A DNA stretch of 64,000 bases from a plasmid. Below, in pieces: positions 48,001-57,000 of the stretch. Numbering within the stretch: position 1 is the first letter of the stretch; the number at the start of each line of letters is the position of its first letter. The position numbers are program-made. The stretch is from sequence record NZ_CP102478.1; one strand, 5' to 3'.

Positions 48001-51000
48001 GACCCCGAAATCGGCACGGCCGAGGCGATAGGCTTGCGCCGTCGCCCAGTTGCGGCACCACGCTTTCGCGTTGATCGCGAACATGCCGACGAATGCCGCG
48101 ACCAACCAGACGAGGCGGATTTTCCAGCCGTACCAGAACGGGCTATTGCGCTTGGCCGACGTGCCGAGATTCTTCATGATTTGCTCCTTGCGACGCTCGA
48201 CATAGCGAGCGCTGGTCGCGTCGATGACGCGTTATCGAGAAAACGCGCCATCGAACGCGGCGCGCTGCGTGTCGGACAGGTGTGCCGCGTCGATCTGCGT
48301 CTCGCGGCTCAGAATCATCAGCGCATAGGGTTCGGCAAGAACCCGCGCCTCACGGCACAGGATCGGATCGCCTTCGACACTCGGTTGGCGCGCGCGCCAA
48401 ATGTTGATCGCGCGCTCAAGCTGATCGATGCTCAGAATCGTTCCGGTGTTCATCGTGTGTTCTCCATAATCGGCGCTGTGGCCCAATGCTGCGGTGACGT
48501 CATCCGTGAATCGGGCAGGGGTCGCCTCGCGCGGCAATACAGTGCGGGCAGTTTTCAAGTTCTTCGCACATAGCCGCGTCGTTTTGCCCCTGCTCCCATG
48601 CCGCCCGCAGAAACGGCTCGTCTGCGAACATCGTCGGCAACTCGCGACGGCCATTCCAATAATCGTTGCGCCCGAGAGTCTCGGTGTCGATCTGAACCTC
48701 GATCATGTCGAAGTGTTCCGGATCGGTGATTGAAGCAATCCGGGCGAGCGCAAACGAGACACGAATATCAAGACCGCGCATGGTACGACTCCTTGCTCGA
48801 ACGATGGAAAGCGCGTCCGGCCGGACGCGCACGAAGTTAATGAAAGATTCCGAGCGCTTCGCGCACAATGCGCCGCGCGTGCGCTGCGCCGAACTTCTCG
48901 CCGTGGGAAAACCCACGCTTGTAGACGGCAATGGCGGCGTTGATCTGCTCGGCGGTCCAGCCGGACGGCAGCGTAAACAGCCCTTCGCCGTCTGCGTCAT
49001 GAACCGAAATATGCTTCCAGATTCCGCTTTCGTGCGAGATCGCGAAATGGTCCTCGGTGATACCTTCAATCATCAGTTCATCAGTCTCGTAGCTCATCGT
49101 GAGTCTCCGGGTTATTGCCAAACCGGCGACCACGCGCCGGACGAAAGGCGAAACAGGGTGATGCGGCGCACGCAACCGCCGACGCTCGTTTCGAGCCGCA
49201 CGGCGCGCGCGTCGTCATCAGGACGGGTCCAGCGATGCAGGACGCGAATCGAGGCGTCAGCCGTGCAGCCGAGCCAATGGGTCGCGATCAGACGGAGTCG
49301 GTTCGAGCGCCGTGCGAAATCTGCCTTTTGGTGGGCCTCGGGGGGTGCGGGGGGAACGCCCGCGTCGTTGGTGTGGCTGGATGGGTTGGGGGTGTTTGCG
49401 CTCATGGTTCCGTCCTTTCGTGTCGGGTTGTGAATCTGCCTTTCGGAGCCGCCTCGACGCGGTTTTAGCGGGGTGGGTCAGGGGTGCAAGGGAACCGTGG
49501 AATACCGGAGCGCGCGCAGCGCGCGAGGATATGCCGCGAAAGTCCCTTGCACCCCTGACCCATTCCGCTATGCGTCGAAAAGAGGCGGGCCGGAAGGCAG
49601 ATTCACGCGATTAACCCGACGCGAAAGGATGGAGCGCAAACACGGCAGTCCCCAACCCAGCCAGCCACACGACGCGGGGACGCACAGCGGCCCCGCGTCC
49701 CGTCGCCCGGCATCGCCGGGCGCTAGACCTGCTGTCCGCCCGCGCGGAGCGGGCGCGTACTCCACGAGCAAGCGAAGCGCGCAGCGCCGGCACGGCGCGC
49801 AGACGTCAGGGATTGAAGCCCGTCAGGGGCGAGACACGCGCAGCGGGGCTCGACGCGCAGCGCGAAAGCCCGGCCCGGAGCGAAGCGGAGGGAGACGCCC
49901 GAGCAGCAAGTCAGGGAAGTGCCAGGAGTGCATGCGCCACAGCGACGGGCGCGCATGCGCGGCATCGGAAAGGTGATCCTTTACGGGAGCGGAAGAGACC
50001 AGGACAGTGAGAACTTTCGGGAGTAGATCATCATGCCGCGTACGGCCCGCCGAAGGACACTGACCGGCACGCCGCACCAGCGGGCGCGGTGCACCCGCTG
50101 GCGTCGATCAGGTCAATCACGCGGCGGCATGCCTTCACCCTCCGCTACGGCGGCGTCGTCGCGCACCTCGTCGGCCGACGCAACCAGCGCAGGCTCGTCC
50201 GCCTCCGCTTCATCGGCGCTCGCCTCGGCATCCGACGCCTTCGCCGGAACGTCCCACAGCTTCATCCGCACGGCTTCGGCCGTGACGAAATGCTCGGGCA
50301 ACCAACCGCGCCCCGCGATCAGCCGTTCGGCCTCCGTCGCCGCGTCCCCCTTCTTGAGCTTCGCCACGCGCATCGCATCGGAAGGCGACACGGCCGCGCT
50401 CACGACGTCCACGATCCGATCTTTCGAAACGTGGTCGAAGTAGCCCGCCTTCGTCGGTTGCCACGCACCCGCGAGATTCAGCCCGAGCGCCGGGATCAGC
50501 GCGTTGATCGCGTGCGGCCGCTCGTCCGGGCGCACGCTGTCCACGCTCGCCGCGACGTACTGCGCGAGGATCAGCAGCAGGCGCTCATCGGTCTGCTCGA
50601 TCAGCCAGCGCAACAGCGCGTCGCTGTCGTTCGGGATCACGCCTCCCCAAACCCGGCGTTGCTCTCGGCGCGTCGTGAACGCAAGGTCGTCGTCCAGTTC
50701 CGGCGCATGCTTCGTCAGGGTGTGGGAGTGGTCGCGGAACGTCACGTCGAGCGCACTCCCATCGGTACTGTGGCCGTACTCGCCCGCCAGTAGCCGGTGC
50801 ACGAGCGCCGCGAGCGCGACGTGCGGCTGCTGCGCGAGGGCGGCGGCAACAGCCGCCGTGCGATGCGCGTTCAGGCGCAGCGTCAGCCGTTCGGAGTGCG
50901 GCCCCTTCGTGAGCTTCACGGCCGGCGCGGCGACGCGTGCGGGCTGACCATCTGACGAGTCGTCGTCATCGTCGTCACCATTCTCGTCACTTTCGGTCGT

Positions 51001-54000: not shown

Positions 54001-57000
54001 GGGTCCAGTTCGATGCCGATATACCGGCGCCCAAGCTCGCGGGCGGCAACGCACGTCGAGCCGGACCCGGCGAACGGATCCAGTACGACGTCGCCGGGCT
54101 GCGTAAAAGCTGAAATGAGTGTGCGCAGCGCGGCGACCGGCTTTTCGGTCGGATGGTGGCGATTGCCGCTGTACGGAAACGGCATGACGTCGGCGATCGG
54201 CGCCGCCGGCGCCGCGGGCCTCCCCTTGGCGAGCAGGTAGGCCGATTCGTGCTGGTACTTCACCAGGCCGGCCTTGGACGCGTAGGACTTCGTGAAGACG
54301 AAGTGGCCGGCGACGCGAAAGCCGGCGGCCTTCCAGGCGTCGAAAAACAGATCGACCTTGTTCCAGCCGTAGAACGAAATGCACACGGCATCGCGTTTCA
54401 GGACGCGGAACATTTCGGCGAACGCCGGCGCCAGCCAGTCGCCGTTCACGTCGTTCGCGATCGAGCGGCCGCTGCGATCGCGAAAATTCACGAGGTAAGG
54501 CGGGTCCGTCACGATGCAGTCGACGGATTCGGGGGCGAGTTTGGGCATGGCGACCAGGCAGTCGCCGTTGTACAAATAGCTCACGGTCAGCTCCATAGAG
54601 TTGAGATAGGGGCAGCCGGAGCGATGCGGCTCGCAAACCGTGCTACCCGGAGCTGGCGAGCGCCCGCAGGGGAATGGCGGGCAAGGGGACCGTGGAATAC
54701 CGGAGTGCGCGAAGCGCGCGAGGATATGCCGCGAAAGCCCCTTGCAGGAGAGGGGCGCCGTGCGACATTCGTCGCGCACGGCGGAACGGTCCGTCCGCCA
54801 GGACACGGCGGGCGAACGTGGGCTCCGGGTTGAAAGGTCGACGGCAGCGGCGTGCCGGCGGAAGGGGATGGACCTGCAGGACGCAGCGGACCGACGGTGC
54901 TGCGTCCTGGTCATGAGCGCCGCAGCGATCTCCGATCGCGCGGCGCGATCGCGATTCCGTCAGCGCGGCCGCGAGAGCGGCCGCCGCGCAAATTTGCCCG
55001 CACGACGGCCGAGCGGGTTGAGGTACTGCAGCGTCAGAACAGCGCCAGCTGCTGCGCCTCGAGGCGCGCATCTCGACGCTGCACGTCGACGTCGCTCGCG
55101 AGCAGCTCGATCGATGCACCATCCGGGTCTTCAACGCACGCGTCGAGCGGTATGGGCGCCCCTCGCGGGGCATCGGCCGCACCAATACGCTCAAATTCCG
55201 CACGCGTAGCGGCCAAGAGGGCGCGCGTGGCATGCTCCGGCAGCACGTAGTCGGCCGACGCGTACTGGCCGTCAAAGAATCGTGTCACGCCATACCGTTC
55301 TCCGCCGCCGTGCCTCGGCCGGTATACGACCAGAGCGATACGATCGGCATCGCGCCGACCGTTGGTCCATCCCACTGGCCCGCAAGGCACTAGACCACAT
55401 TCAGCGGCGATCGCCGCGCCGCGCGCGATCAAATCGACGTGCGCGCGGTCGATGACGCGATGCAGATTGGGCATCTTCAGGAAAAGCTGATTCATTGGGG
55501 TCTCCTGGTCGTGCTCGGGGTAGCCGAACCACGACGGCCGGCTACCCCCAAAATGTGAGATCGCGCACCATCCATCATCACCATGTGCGCGACGATCGGC
55601 GTCAGCTCATCGGGAACTGTCGGGACGCTCCCGCCACGTCTGCACCTCGTGAACCTTCACGAGCTCGAACGGGGTCTCGCCGTCAGGCTCGATGCCAGGG
55701 TTCTCCAGAATGACACGCAATGCATCTGCGTCGCTCAGGGCGGCCAGGGCCGTCAGAAGCTGCTCGCGGCCAGCCTTGCCCGCACGAGCCCACTCGCTCC
55801 CGTCCTCGTCGTTCCAATCCGGCACGGTGGGCAGCTGAAGGCCATACGCGCAGGCGGCCTCAATTGCGGCAGATTCGATCGCTGTCATCATTCGCTCCTT
55901 GGGGATTCCGGTCAGTGGACATCGCGCCGTACGAACAGACGCGCGGCCGTGGCCGAACGGGGAAAGCCGTGCACGTCGGAGGTCTCGGCAAGCATTGCGG
56001 CGACATCCATCTGCACGTTGGACCCCGAGCGAAGGCTGCCCGCCCGGTGCACGCCGATCACCTCGAGCAGCTGCAGGTTCCCCGCGCGATATCCGTCGAC
56101 CGTCATCGAGGCGCGCACGTCCGGCGCCAGCCGATCGCCGTAGCGCGACGCGAGCCGCGCGAGCGCACGCTCAATCGCGCGATCACTGAACTGTCGCGAC
56201 AGCGCGATCCGATCTGCAGCGAGACGAACCATCTGCCGGCCGCTGGACGTCAACATGAAGTGTTCGACGCGCTCGACCCTACCGCCGTCTGCCAGACGCG
56301 TGGCCTGCAGCGGCATCACAAGGCGCGCAACCTGCACGTCTCGGGGGCCGTCGGTCCATTCGATGCTCAGCTGCGTGCCGTGTTCGTTCTTCGCGACGCG
56401 CACCGCGAACGACGTCGCGGGGAACCCTTCACGCAACACGGTCTGCACCAACTGCGCGGTCTCGACAAGGTTCAGCACGTCGGCCAGCACCGCGGGCGCG
56501 GTGGCGGAATCCCGACTGCCCCGCGTGCGGACGGATTCGGAAATTTGGGTATGGCGATCTGCAATGTGATGGAACATGTTGAACCTCGAATGATGGTGGA
56601 CGGGACAACGTGAGGCGAGGGCGCCGGCGGCGATCGCCGGCGCGTTCGGGTTAGCCCTTCAGCTTGCGCATCTCTTCGGCGAGCACCCACATGGCGCGAT
56701 TCAGGCGGAGATCCTGATCGATGCCGGCCACACCGCGTGTCGACATCCGGCGGCCAGAGGCCGAGCGACCACGCAGTCCGCCCTTGATCACGTTCTCCTG
56801 CACGCGCTGGAACGTAGTCCAGAGGTCGGGGCGGTTGTCGTCGGTGCGACGCGCGCGAAGCAGCTGATCCTCGGTGATCGGCGCGGGCGCTTCGGTCACG
56901 TCGTACCGGAGAGCCAGCACCGACCGCGCAAACGCCTGTTGCTCGCCTTCATCAAGCTGCACGGCTTCCATCTCGCTCTTGCATTCGCGGATCAGGTCGA

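What the first reader, a model, noticed from the sequence alone, without database searches (positions are those of the whole stretch)
49336..54745. Family of ~65-nt REP-like hairpins and a duplicated leader plus N-terminus module
The elements at 49475-49561 and 54681-54745 share a ~90% identical core (ACCGTGGAATACCGGAG[C/T]GCGCG[C/A]AGCGCGCGAGGATATGCCGCGAAAG) closed by GCAAGGG/CCCTTGC stems. A related long hairpin lies at 57836-57924. Each sits in the 5' region of a minus-strand gene. The genes starting at 49405 and 52242 share both an upstream CGGAGCCGCCTCGACGC motif and a 31-nt coding stretch (DAGVPPAPPEAH). The hairpins could be structured 5'-UTR elements, small RNAs or recombination scars.
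Basis: seen in the sequence. Interest (0 to 1): 0.55.

Follow-up and report, generated by a model that had tools for sequence, protein, structure and literature searches.

The report
Single-stranded-DNA promoter/origin hairpins on plasmid
The two "REP-like" 65-nt hairpins are the tips of 200-300-nt hairpins in the first-transferred region of a Burkholderia conjugative plasmid. They most likely work on the incoming single DNA strand as entry sites for the host's RNA polymerase, and they carry a roughly 60-nt module that I found almost unchanged in plasmids, filamentous phages and insertion sequences of at least six bacterial phyla.

Summary
The window is about 99% identical over the 421-nt stretch compared to B. 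pyrrocinia plasmid p2327 (MOBF/F-type). The finding lies in its leading region, next to a candidate oriT.

The two 92%-identical cores (49481-49555, 54676-54750) cap long imperfect hairpins A (49371-49670) and C (54637-54838). Two more hairpins lack the core but keep the GCAAGGG/CCCTTGC-type stem: B (52203-52518) and D (57781-57982). Each hairpin precedes a minus-strand establishment operon. Each carries TTGnnn-16 nt-(TATGCG/GACATT/TACGGT) on its right arm.

The core is not a REP. Exact matches to its two boxes occur in at least six phyla, always on mobile elements. Its stems P1 and P4 covary. Wobble asymmetry (G.T 55 : A.C 8) shows that the + strand is the one that folds.

In conjugative elements the core is antisense to the genes that start about 85 nt away (ParB, ArdC, methylase). 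In inoviruses it is on the sense strand. In both cases that is the strand that exists as single-stranded DNA.

Its 3' box and pairing partner match the RSB duplex of ssoA single-strand origins, down to the same G.A and G.T mispairs, but with the opposite loop connection.

Best reading: Frpo-like single-stranded-DNA promoters/origins built on an RSB module. Nothing was found in Rfam or in the literature searched. Caveat: the core also sits inside IS elements in Firmicutes.

The parts
49371..49670 (+). Hairpin A. A roughly 300-nt imperfect hairpin (repeat arms extend it to 49359-49678). Its left arm holds the Shine-Dalgarno site, the ATG (49405) and the first codons of the downstream gene.
   Evidence: DNA fold -161.8 kcal/mol, z = -20.6. 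The minus strand reaches only -141.7. Inverted repeats I3, I15 and I16. Across 8 homologues there are 120 consensus pairs, 36 of them with compensatory changes.
49481..49555 (+). Core A. P1 stem GCAAGGGA/TCCCTTGC; the invariant duplex CGTGG-A-ATACC / GG-A-TAT-G-CCGCG; apical cap GCGCGC-GCA-GCGCGC; the RSB-like box GGATATGCCGCGAAAG at 49527-49542.
   Evidence: Covariance model R1 scores 84.8 bits, E = 6e-22. Fold. Covariation of P1 and P4. RSB comparison.
49547..49574 (+). Promoter-like elements on the right arm of A, which would mimic the non-template strand: TTGCAC (49547-49552), a 16-nt spacer, then TATGCG (49569-49574). The second hexamer sits at an asymmetric bubble.
   Evidence: Read from the sequence. 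The block CTATGCGTCG is invariant in 8 homologues, and the bubble is conserved. Promoter function is inferred, not shown.
49112..49405 (-). 97-aa gene with no Pfam match, downstream of hairpin A. It is the first of a run of small genes pointing towards the candidate oriT.
   Evidence: Annotated as hypothetical in p2327.
52203..52518 (+). Hairpin B, a paralogue of A. It keeps the basal arms and the P1 stem (GCAAGGG 52325-52331 / CCCTTGC 52399-52405). It also keeps TTGCGG (52402-52407), a 16-nt spacer and TATGCG (52424-52429). Its tip is different and has no core.
   Evidence: Fold z = -9.5. A/B alignment. Motif coordinates.
50113..52242 (-). 709-aa ParB-like gene downstream of hairpin B. Its start codon and first codons lie inside the left arm of B.
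   Evidence: Weak Pfam matches to ParB_N and HTH_ParB, all below the curated cut-offs. Annotated as ParB/RepB/Spo0J in p2327. N-terminal translation.
54637..54838 (+). Hairpin C, about 200 nt with a side hairpin. It carries the second core at its tip.
   Evidence: Inverted repeat I1. Fold z = -3.7.
54676..54750 (+). Core C. The apical cap contains GCGAAGC. It is followed by TTGCAG (54742-54747), a 16-nt spacer and GACATT (54764-54769).
   Evidence: R1 scores 87.1 bits, E = 1e-22..
53931..54596 (-). Orphan N6/N4 DNA methyltransferase gene. Its start codon is 98 nt from the GGAATACCG of core C. It heads a four-gene run that includes a DUF6900 gene.
   Evidence: Pfam N6_N4_Mtase, E = 7e-36. p2327 annotation.
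57781..57982 (+). Hairpin D. P1-like stem TTCAAGGG (57837-57844) / CCCTTGAA (57918-57925). TTGAAT (57921-57926), a 16-nt spacer, then TACGGT (57943-57948). It contains GCGCAGC and GCGAAGC mini-hairpin motifs but no core.
   Evidence: Inverted repeat I5. Fold z = -5.3..
56651..57478 (-). DUF932 gene, followed by an LPD29 gene at 55912-56577, downstream of hairpin D.
   Evidence: Pfam DUF932, E = 2e-51, and LPD29, E = 1e-9.
49335..49363 (+). 29-nt G-rich block, identical to 52172-52200. On the minus strand it encodes AGVPPAPPEA in both downstream genes. It lies just outside the base of each hairpin.
   Evidence: (D1). The GGGGGAACGCCCG part is kept in most of the 8 homologues.
46055..46102 (+). 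Candidate oriT inverted repeat: 22-nt arms with a 4-nt loop. It lies between the T4CP/MobF-relaxase operon and the leading region. TGTCTGACA repeats lie at 45649-45998.
   Evidence: Gene order from p2327. The nick site was not identified. The assignment of the + strand as the T-strand rests on analogy with F-type plasmids.

Best explanation
Proposal. Hairpins A-D are single-stranded-DNA-specific entry sites for the host RNA polymerase, located on the transferred strand of a conjugative plasmid. They would be the functional equivalents of Frpo/ssi promoters and of single-strand origins (sso).

Proposed mechanism (inferred):
1. The + strand enters a recipient 5'->3' from the oriT region at about 46.1 kb, and each element folds.
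2. The stem rebuilds a duplex promoter. The right arm plays the non-template strand, reading RSB-like box, 4 nt, TTGnnn ('-35', in stem P1), 16 nt, then a '-10'-like hexamer at a conserved bubble.
3. The left arm is the template.
4. RNA polymerase transcribes down the stem, away from the tip, and out into the single-stranded template. This gives mRNA for the ParB-like, methylase, DUF932 and small-gene operons before the complementary strand exists. It also gives a primer for that strand.
5. Once the DNA is duplex, the hairpin and its promoter are gone.

The 60-nt core on A and C is an exchangeable cap module that holds the RSB duplex known from ssoA origins, but with the loop on the other side. 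As a result, transcription would run out of the hairpin and not into the loop.

Shown here: the structures, their covariation, which strand folds, gene spacing and orientation, the RSB match, and the distribution.

Inferred: polymerase binding, the start sites, dependence on the single-stranded state, and that the + strand is the T-strand.
For: 1. Context. The 421-nt query around hairpin A is 98.8% identical to plasmid p2327, which is MOBF/MPF_F and conjugative.
- TraC and TraG_N are present in the window.
- The gene order is the tra genes, then relaxase-T4CP, then the inverted-repeat/iteron region, then the leading genes. All of these genes lie on one strand, as in F.
- The genes behind the hairpins are ParB-like, an orphan methylase, DUF932 and LPD29.

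2. Structure. The four hairpins have z-scores from -3.7 to -20.6. Eight homologues share 120 pairs, 36 of them compensatory, and share a conserved bubble at the '-10'.

3. Which strand folds.
- The + strand is more stable than the - strand by 20 kcal/mol for hairpin A and by 4 kcal/mol for each core.
- The T.G pair in P2 is present in 89 of 91 sequences.
- Mismatches in P1 are G.T 55 against A.C 8. In the arms they are 44 against 18.

4. Directionality.
- In 36 non-redundant cases a gene on the opposite strand starts 20-150 nt from the core, most of them between 80 and 97 nt. In the window the distances are 94 and 98 nt.
- Genes on the same strand on the other side show no such peak.
- Of the 24 of these proteins that were scanned, the recurrent Pfam families were ParB_N, ArdC-N (+M78), N6_N4 methylase and glutaredoxin.

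5. Orientation follows the single strand. In inovirus-like and Rep-bearing viral contigs the core is on the same strand as Zot (12/13), Rep (33/33) and capsid (14/15). In conjugative loci it is antisense to the downstream genes.

6. RSB.
- The core box TATGCCGCGAAAG-TCTA-TTGACA (P1 arm as in the Lachnospiraceae copies; TCCC-TTGCAC in the window) compares with ssoA TATGCCGAGAAAA-TTTA-TTGTGC.
- The partner strand shares GGAATA.
- The G.A mismatch and the G.T wobble fall at the same positions.
- RSB is described as required for RNA polymerase binding in sso.

7. All four hairpins have TTGnnn followed by exactly 16 nt and a TA/GA-type hexamer. In Firmicutes and many Proteobacteria the P1 arm reads TTGACA.

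8. Precedent. Hairpin promoters upstream of six leading-region operons, including a methylase, were confirmed by 5' RACE in plasmid pESBL.
Against: - There are no transcription or priming data for this family. The start sites are predictions.
- The '-10' hexamers are poor matches. TATGCG lacks the T at -7. A standard sigma-70 scan finds nothing in 49300-58100.
- In Lachnospiraceae the spacing is TTGACA-N11-GATAAT, which is not canonical.
- The T-strand assignment rests on analogy with F-type gene order. No nick site was identified.
- In Lachnospiraceae and Bacillaceae the core lies inside IS-like elements, just after the stop codon of a DDE or IS256-family transposase and on the same strand. 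No single-stranded stage is known for such elements, so an RNA-level or duplex-level role is possible there.
- Some copies have no gene at the expected distance, for example P. aeruginosa pCCBH28525_KPC.
- Hairpins B and D, and homologous hairpins in B. glumae, lack the core. The core is therefore not required for whatever the hairpin base does.
- The crude nearest-gene strand counts show only a moderate bias.
- Many of the viral contigs in the orientation test belong to a few lineages.
Confidence: 0.6

Rival explanations
1. Single-strand origins only. The elements prime complementary-strand DNA synthesis on the entering strand, as ssoA or the filamentous-phage minus-strand origin do, but they do not drive expression of the adjacent genes. 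Those genes would use ordinary duplex promoters.
For: The core occurs in inoviruses and in 2.5-kb RepL/MOBV plasmids, where a gene-promoter role on the single strand makes no sense. The RSB match is to origins that make a short primer. Some copies have no gene nearby.
Against: Most of the 36 non-redundant opposite-strand start codons within 150 nt lie 80-97 nt from the core, and the recurrent families among those genes are establishment genes. The permuted topology points transcription out of the hairpin towards the gene. There are four hairpins, one per operon, and the left arms of A and B include the ribosome-binding site and the ATG. The pESBL precedent also applies.
Confidence: 0.15
2. An RNA element. 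The core would be transcribed in the + orientation and act as RNA: a 3'-UTR, terminator or stabiliser in IS elements and phages, and a cis-antisense RNA against the start of the downstream gene in plasmids.
For: In IS-like elements and in viral contigs the core is on the gene's sense strand. In the IS elements it starts 6-44 nt after the transposase stop codon. Covariation and G.U-type wobbles would fit RNA as well as DNA.
Against: No Rfam family matches, apart from generic miRNA-like hairpin hits well below each family's gathering score. In conjugative loci the core is antisense to both flanking genes, and no promoter that would transcribe it was seen. The P1 3' arm is TTGACA-like with a fixed 16-nt spacing to a second hexamer, which is unexplained for an RNA. 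The RSB homology is to elements that act as DNA. About 40% of the distinct apical caps contain GC-GNA-GC; by my own knowledge that is an unusually stable DNA mini-hairpin.
Confidence: 0.12
3. Duplex-DNA regulatory palindromes. These would be ordinary promoters with a long operator or cruciform bound by a plasmid regulator such as the ParB/KorB-like protein.
For: The P1 palindrome places TTGnnn on both strands. A ParB-like gene with a helix-turn-helix is adjacent. In IS256-type copies, TTGACA-17-CATGAT reads outward as a normal promoter would.
Against: The core is shared by replicons from at least six phyla that have no common regulator. There is strong strand asymmetry in mispairs and in fold energy. 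Arms of 100-150 nt with compensatory changes exceed any operator. Orientation relative to the genes flips with replicon type.
Confidence: 0.08
4. REP/MITE-like selfish repeats, or inert recombination scars.
For: The unit is short, palindromic and repeated. Tips have been swapped between homologous hairpin bases. RSB was first defined as a recombination site.
Against: There are two copies in 64 kb and none on E. coli chromosomes. Position and orientation relative to genes are fixed. P1 and P4 covary while the internal loops stay invariant across phyla.
Confidence: 0.03

Closest known systems
ssoA (palA)-type single-strand origins of rolling-circle plasmids (pT181, pC194, pE194/pLS1)
   Same: - Both are folded single-stranded DNA and work in one orientation only.
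- They share the RSB box: TATGCCG(A/C)GAAA(A/G).
- They share the partner (T)GGAATA, with a G.A mismatch and a G.T wobble at the same positions.
- RSB is followed after 4 nt by TTGnnn.
- Apical loops rich in (T/C/A)AGCG resemble CS-6, TAGCGT.
- RSB is described as required for RNA polymerase binding.
- The core sits in a 2.5-kb RepL/MOBV plasmid, where an sso would be expected.
   Different: - The topology is permuted. ssoA runs 5'-RSB...long hairpin with CS-6...GGAATA-3', so RNA synthesis heads into the loop and stops after about 20 nt (the length and direction come from my own knowledge of Kramer et al. 1997).
- Here the order is 5'-GGAATA-small cap-RSB-3', followed by the stem base, so synthesis would head outward.
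- The covariance model of the core does not hit pT181.
- The family here is GC-rich, is found far outside Firmicutes, occurs in several copies per element, and is placed in front of genes.
Frpo/ssi single-stranded-DNA promoters of IncF/IncI1 plasmids (class 1), and the class 2 and 3 promoters of pESBL
   Same: - Leading-region location.
- One long imperfect hairpin per establishment operon, including a methylase operon.
- -35/-10-like elements rebuilt in the stem, with the tip upstream of the -35.
- Genes templated by the transferred strand.
   Different: - There is no sequence similarity. Frpo tips are A/T-rich UP-like sequences.
- The core boxes are absent from the Frpo candidate lists of Samuel et al. 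2024.
- Known classes are enterobacterial and are thought to be host-restricted. This core is found across phyla.
Minus-strand origin of filamentous (Ff) phages
   Same: Hairpins on the packaged strand that mimic a promoter, so that host RNA polymerase makes the primer (my own knowledge: Higashitani et al. 1997). Here the core is present, on the viral sense strand, in contigs encoding Zot, secretin and G2P-type Rep.
   Different: The Ff origin has a different sequence. The inovirus copies found here have not been tested.
sso of ICEBs1
   Same: A single-strand origin carried by a conjugative element that aids establishment (abstract listed).
   Different: By my own recollection it is of the ssoT type; I did not check this here. 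It comes from a Gram-positive ICE and is not reported as a gene promoter.
REP/BIME elements and the STAXI-type 'RNA or ssDNA' motifs in Rfam
   Same: Short conserved palindromic units. STAXI is associated with SSB and anti-restriction genes (my own knowledge).
   Different: No Rfam family, STAXI included, matches at gathering score or up to E = 10; only generic miRNA-like hairpin hits, far below their gathering scores, appeared. Copy number and context are unlike REP.

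Membership tests
ssoA-type single-strand origin | A conserved RSB sequence that forms the base duplex of the folded origin | tested here: met
   11 of 14 positions match pSELNU1 RSB. The partner strand and the G.A and G.T mispairs match pC194 and pT181.
ssoA-type single-strand origin | CS-6 (TAGCGT) in the terminal loop | tested here: inconclusive
   52 of 135 distinct apical inserts contain GCG-N-AGC, which resembles CS-6. An exact TAGCGT was not seen among the copies I read; this was not counted.
ssoA-type single-strand origin | Topology: RSB on the 5' arm at the hairpin base, with the long hairpin and loop lying 3' of it | tested here: not met
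   The connectivity is permuted, and model R1 does not hit pT181.
ssoA-type single-strand origin | Strand-specific: functional only on the strand that becomes single-stranded | tested here: met
   Indirect evidence. Orientation follows the single-stranded strand in inoviruses as against conjugative loci. Mispairs and fold energy are strand-asymmetric.
ssoA-type single-strand origin | RNA-polymerase-dependent primer synthesis | not testable with these tools
   Needs in vitro transcription or replication assays.
Frpo/ssi single-stranded-DNA promoter | Located in the leading region, upstream of establishment genes that are templated by the T-strand | tested here: met
   The T-strand assignment is by analogy.
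Frpo/ssi single-stranded-DNA promoter | A long imperfect hairpin that rebuilds -35 and -10 elements, with mispairing at the -10 | tested here: inconclusive
   The hairpins, the TTGnnn-16-hexamer pattern and a conserved bubble are present. The -10 matches are weak, and the consensus scan finds none.
Frpo/ssi single-stranded-DNA promoter | Sequence similarity to Frpo/ssi1-3 | tested here: not met
   By eye, no resemblance to the ColIb-P9 Frpo1 and Frpo2 or the F Frpo sequences printed in the supplement, whose tips are A/T-rich. The core boxes are absent from the supplementary lists.
Frpo/ssi single-stranded-DNA promoter | Active on single-stranded DNA and silent on duplex DNA | not testable with these tools
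   Needs transconjugant transcriptomics or in vitro assays.
REP/MITE-type dispersed repeat | Many copies dispersed in chromosomal intergenic regions | tested here: not met
   2 copies in the window. In E. coli, 6 of 5426 genomes, on plasmids only.
Any Rfam RNA family | A score at or above the family's gathering threshold | tested here: not met
   0 hits at gathering score. Only generic miRNA-like hairpin matches below threshold.

The most novel reading that the evidence does not exclude
The roughly 60-nt core would be a universal, structure-specific docking module for a host factor common to all bacteria, most likely RNA polymerase, on single-stranded DNA. It would be an 'everted' relative of the ssoA RSB. 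It would have spread horizontally among conjugative plasmids and ICEs, rolling-circle plasmids, filamentous phages and even IS elements in at least six phyla. It would allow host-independent priming and immediate-early gene expression from entering single strands.
Probability: 0.4. Interest if true: 0.85.

Novelty: new variant of a known kind. Interest (0 to 1): 0.75.

Why it matters
Early expression from the entering single strand is what lets conjugative plasmids switch off restriction, CRISPR and SOS before they can be destroyed. The promoters that do this are characterised only for IncF/IncI plasmids in enterobacteria, and they are thought to be host-restricted.

A compact, nearly invariant module that marks such sites in Proteobacteria, Actinobacteria, Firmicutes, Saccharibacteria and filamentous phages would do four things:
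- It would give a sequence handle for finding leading regions, T-strand polarity and anti-defence islands in unannotated elements.
- It would link two literatures, rolling-circle sso/RSB and Frpo, through one recognition structure.
- It would suggest how broad-host-range establishment is achieved.
- It would offer a portable part for single-stranded-DNA-triggered expression.

All of this can be tested directly with existing assays: M13 ori(-) rescue, in vitro transcription on single-stranded DNA, and RNA-seq of transconjugants after donor removal.

Tried and rejected
- Rfam at gathering score on the whole window, and at E <= 10 on 49300-49720: only generic miRNA-type hairpin matches.
- Full-text search for the core boxes as DNA or RNA: only unrelated primer hits.
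- Search for the boxes in the supplementary Frpo tables of Samuel et al. 2024: absent.
- Sigma-70 consensus scan of 49300-58100: 0 sites.
- Nearest-gene strand from the longest ORF: uninformative in high-GC DNA. I replaced it with a GC3-filtered gene call.
- 'Enclosing pairs' from minimum-free-energy folds of +/-170 nt: too noisy to measure arm length.
- Global arm alignments: the control background was too high. I replaced them with isolated-mismatch counts.
- Covariance model R1 against pT181 and against the C. koseri homologue: no hit. This is expected for a permuted topology and for a different tip.
- RSB-like search in pUB110 (the ssoU type, from my own knowledge): nothing convincing. I therefore make no claim of my own about ssoU.
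- pMV158 and the PNAS 1998 ssoA paper could not be fetched.
- I looked for F/R388-type nick sequences in 45400-47250 by eye only and found none I could call.
- I considered that the IS-linked copies were insertions next to the core. I rejected this because conservation runs from the transposase gene through the core to a sharp end about 258 nt beyond it.

Full report
**What is in the window**

The window has 62% G+C, and almost all of its genes are on the minus strand. It carries F-type transfer genes: TraC at 23398-26286 and TraG_N at 4308-7346.

The 421-nt stretch around the first element is 98.8% identical to Burkholderia pyrrocinia plasmid p2327. That plasmid is 113 kb, MOBF/MPF_F and conjugative.

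Transferring the p2327 annotation gives this order, in window orientation:
- the transfer genes;
- the MobF relaxase (about 39.7-42.5 kb) and the coupling protein (about 43.1-45.0 kb);
- a non-coding stretch with TGTCTGACA repeats and a 22-nt-arm inverted repeat at 46055-46102;
- a run of minus-strand genes: small ORFs, a 709-aa ParB-like protein (50113-52242), DUF6900, an orphan N6/N4 methylase (53931-54596), LPD29 and DUF932.

This is the layout of an F-type leading region. Everything is transcribed in one direction, towards and through oriT. By analogy the + strand is therefore the transferred strand and the template for these genes. I did not find the nick site, so this polarity is an inference.

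**Checking the observation**

49481-49551 and 54676-54746 are 92% identical. The 44-nt pattern occurs exactly twice, against zero in shuffles. Both copies are closed by GCAAGGG/CCCTTGC.

The shared TTCGGAGCCGCCTCGACGC motif is confirmed. So is the shared coding block, which is 29 nt of perfect identity and not 31. It encodes DAGVPPAPPEAH in both proteins.

- Hairpin A spans 49371-49670. It folds at -161.8 kcal/mol as DNA, z = -20.6.
- Hairpin C spans 54637-54838.
- Two further hairpins have the same kind of closing stem but no core: B at 52203-52518 and D at 57781-57982.

So there are four hairpins, one in front of each apparent operon.

A and B are paralogues. They share the N-terminal coding block, the Shine-Dalgarno site and ATG, both basal arms and the CCCTTGC stem. 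Their tips differ. This explains the 'duplicated leader plus N-terminus'. The left arm of the hairpin runs into the gene, so the duplicated unit is the hairpin itself.

**The long hairpins are under selection**

Eight homologous hairpins were aligned: the window's A and B, four Burkholderia species, and a Citrobacter koseri plasmid. They share a consensus of 120 pairs, 36 of which show compensatory double changes.

The most conserved blocks are not the tips. They are the left-arm GGAGCCGCCTCGACGC, the CCCTTG of P1, and the right-arm CTATGCGTCG..GAGGCGG. A conserved asymmetric bubble lies between them.

Related plasmids carry different tips on the same base. These are the core, a short GGCGCAGCC tip, or a degenerate GAGGACGTGGGCG tip. 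The tip is therefore an exchangeable module.

**The core is a very widely distributed module**

A distant BLAST against plasmids found the whole hairpin only in Burkholderia. The 68-nt core, however, was found at 82-93% identity in plasmids of Pseudomonas, Salmonella, Shigella, E. coli, Arsenophonus, Vibrio and Photobacterium. It was also found in the actinobacteria Cutibacterium, Miniimonas, Cryobacterium and Arthrobacter.

These came from Actinomycetota, Bacillota, alpha-, beta- and gamma-Proteobacteria, a Desulfocurvus MAG, Saccharibacteria, Spirochaetales and Bacteroidales. The same scan found 55 viral contigs.

In 91 non-redundant copies:
- The closing stem P1 (8 of 8 pairs) and the apical stem P4 (6 of 6 pairs) show compensatory changes.
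- 0 of 500 shuffles reach the observed covariation, and the slid controls collapse.
- The inner duplex and its unpaired bases are invariant.
- Part of that invariance was imposed by my search pattern. The adjacent CGT, which includes a T.G pair, was not imposed, and it is still nearly invariant.

Rfam 15 has no matching family. I found no description of this family in the literature I could search.

In 5426 complete E. coli genomes, the E. coli copy of the element occurs six times, always on a plasmid and always once. It is not a REP.

**Which strand folds, and as what**

The + strand folds better than the - strand by 20 kcal/mol for hairpin A and by 4 kcal/mol for each core.

Across the family, mispairs in P1 are G.T 55 times and A.C 8 times, with the pairing register chosen on Watson-Crick pairs only. 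In the longer arms the counts are 44 against 18. The strand as written is therefore the functional one.

In the window that strand is antisense to every neighbouring gene. This rules out a 5'-UTR structure.

The strongest argument for DNA rather than RNA is orientation:
- In conjugative loci, a gene on the opposite strand starts 20-150 nt from the core in 36 non-redundant cases, most of them between 80 and 97 nt (94 and 98 nt in the window). The other side shows no such peak.
- Of the 24 of these proteins that I scanned, the recurrent Pfam families were ParB_N, ArdC-N (two also with an M78 peptidase domain), N6_N4 methylase and glutaredoxin. In Cutibacterium plasmid pTZC1 the gene is annotated as an ArdC-like ssDNA-binding protein.
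- In viral contigs that encode Zot, secretin and G2P-type Rep, which are inovirus markers, the core is on the same strand as the genes. The counts are Zot 12/13, Rep 33/33 and capsid 14/15.

The packaged strand of filamentous phages has mRNA sense, whereas the transferred plasmid strand is the template for leading genes. Both statements are established knowledge. The core therefore follows the strand that exists as single-stranded DNA, not the direction of the genes.

About 40% of the distinct apical caps (52 of 135) contain GC-GNA-GC, for example GCGAAGC in core C. By my own knowledge this is an exceptionally stable DNA mini-hairpin.

**Link to known single-strand origins**

The 3' box GGATATGCCGCGAAAG resembles RSB of ssoA-type origins, which reads TTATGCCGAGAAAATTT in pSELNU1. 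RSB is described as required for RNA polymerase binding and as conserved among sso types.

I recovered the pC194 palA sequence and verified it at 100% identity in 484 or more plasmid records. Folding it shows that RSB pairs with a 3'-terminal TTGGAATAA through TTAT-G-CCGA / TTGG-A-ATAA. pT181 carries the same two boxes.

The core forms TAT-G-CCGCG / CGTGG-A-ATA. This is the same duplex, with the same G.A mismatch and the same G.T wobble. On the RSB strand both read RSB, 4 nt, then TTGnnn.

The difference is connectivity. In ssoA the loop lies beyond the TTG side, so polymerase runs into the loop. By my own knowledge it then stops after a short primer. Here a small cap closes the other side. 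The RSB-TTG-hexamer strand runs down the right arm towards the base of the hairpin and out towards the gene, as in Frpo.

All four window hairpins read TTGnnn, exactly 16 nt, and then TATGCG, TATGCG, GACATT or TACGGT. In Firmicutes and many Proteobacteria the P1 arm is a perfect TTGACA.

Frpo itself has an A/T-rich tip and shows no sequence resemblance to this family. A 2025 study confirmed hairpin promoters in front of six leading-region operons of pESBL by 5' RACE. One of those operons is a methylase operon. That arrangement is the same as the one seen here.

**Mechanism proposed**

On entry, the + strand folds at A-D. The RSB duplex (on A and C) and the P1 '-35' recruit host RNA polymerase. 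The bubble at the '-10' eases opening.

Transcription uses the left arm as template and continues into the single-stranded gene region. This gives early ParB-like, methylase, DUF932 and small-protein expression, together with primers for the complementary strand. Conversion to duplex DNA removes the structure.

None of the steps from polymerase binding onwards has been shown.

**Caveats**

- The second hexamers are weak, and the consensus scan finds no promoter.
- Lachnospiraceae copies have an odd TTGACA-N11-GATAAT spacing.
- Some copies have no gene at the expected distance.
- B, D and some homologues lack the core.
- The core also lies inside IS-like elements. In Lachnospiraceae it starts 6-44 nt after the stop codon of a roughly 490-aa DDE transposase. 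That element's conserved, hairpin-rich 3' region runs about 258 nt further, to a sharp end. In Anoxybacillus and Caenibacillus the core lies after an IS256-family transposase gene.
- No single-stranded stage is known for such elements. An RNA-level or duplex-level role there cannot be excluded, although the G.T/A.C asymmetry holds in the low-GC set too (17 against 3).

**Verdict**

The REP and 5'-UTR readings are rejected. The best explanation is a new, cross-phylum variant of single-stranded-DNA promoters/origins built on an everted RSB module (confidence about 0.6). It is testable with standard assays.

Noticed in passing
L067, L036, L010, L045 (Lachnospiraceae); L047, L074, L102 (Bacillaceae): The core lies inside IS-like elements, on the sense strand. 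In Lachnospiraceae it starts 6-44 nt after the stop codon of a roughly 490-aa DDE transposase that is only distantly IS6-like. Conservation then continues about 258 nt through several more hairpins, one of them a core-less GTCAAGGGA/TCCCTTG hairpin, to a sharp end at ...CTTGACACTACC. In Bacillaceae the core follows an IS256-family transposase gene.
   Followed up: partly
L143, L132, L166 and about 30 related IMG/VR contigs: A gut-metagenome lineage of 5-14 kb contigs encodes an HK97-type capsid and other large ORFs alongside a 254-aa protein with no Pfam match that looks Rep-like to me by eye. Each contig has one core on the same strand as all of its genes. Whether they package or replicate through single-stranded DNA is unknown.
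   Followed up: partly
window 49744-49886: Six GCG-N-AGC motifs lie on the + strand, and none on the - strand, within 143 nt of the purine-rich, T-poor 434-nt non-coding stretch between hairpin A and the end of the ParB-like gene. Across 44-64 kb the motif count is 36 on + against 15 on -. Across 0-44 kb it is 34 against 30.
   Followed up: partly
window 52440-52941: A 500-nt stretch with no convincing gene and 80% G+C lies between hairpin B and the DUF6900 gene. Long non-coding stretches also follow hairpins A, C and D. Their function is unknown.
   Followed up: no
window 49335-49363 and 52172-52200: The 29-nt G-rich block (GGGGGGTGCGGGGGG...) is perfectly identical in two otherwise different genes, and most of the 8 homologues keep part of it. 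It sits on the template strand just past the base of the hairpin. It may be a signal in its own right, for example a G-quadruplex or a pause site, or it may reflect recent gene conversion.
   Followed up: partly
window 45649-45998, 46055-46102, about 46360-46520 and about 46780-46910: The candidate oriT region contains six TGTCTGACA-type repeats and a 22-nt-arm inverted repeat. By eye it also contains two similar direct repeats of about 130 nt. Each of these holds its own hairpin (GGTGTTGTCCACAC...GTGTGGCAACACC) and would be among the first DNA to enter a recipient.
   Followed up: partly
A4 alignment (window A and B; L185-L189; L005): Homologous hairpin bases in related plasmids carry three different tips: the RSB core, a short GGCGCAGCC tip, or a degenerate GAGGACGTGGGCG tip. 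In the other direction, a Cupriavidus locus (L052) has the core on a base resembling hairpin D. This implies modular exchange of tips.
   Followed up: partly
L002 (P. aeruginosa pCCBH28525_KPC), 6001-6068: This core copy has no annotated opposite-strand gene nearby. It lies in a roughly 2-kb unannotated gap upstream of umuD, which is on the same strand. It does not fit the 85-nt rule.
   Followed up: no
window 48050-48094 (-): A weak covariance-model hit (13.5 bits, E = 0.24) that shares only CGCGAAAG and a stem. It is probably chance.
   Followed up: no
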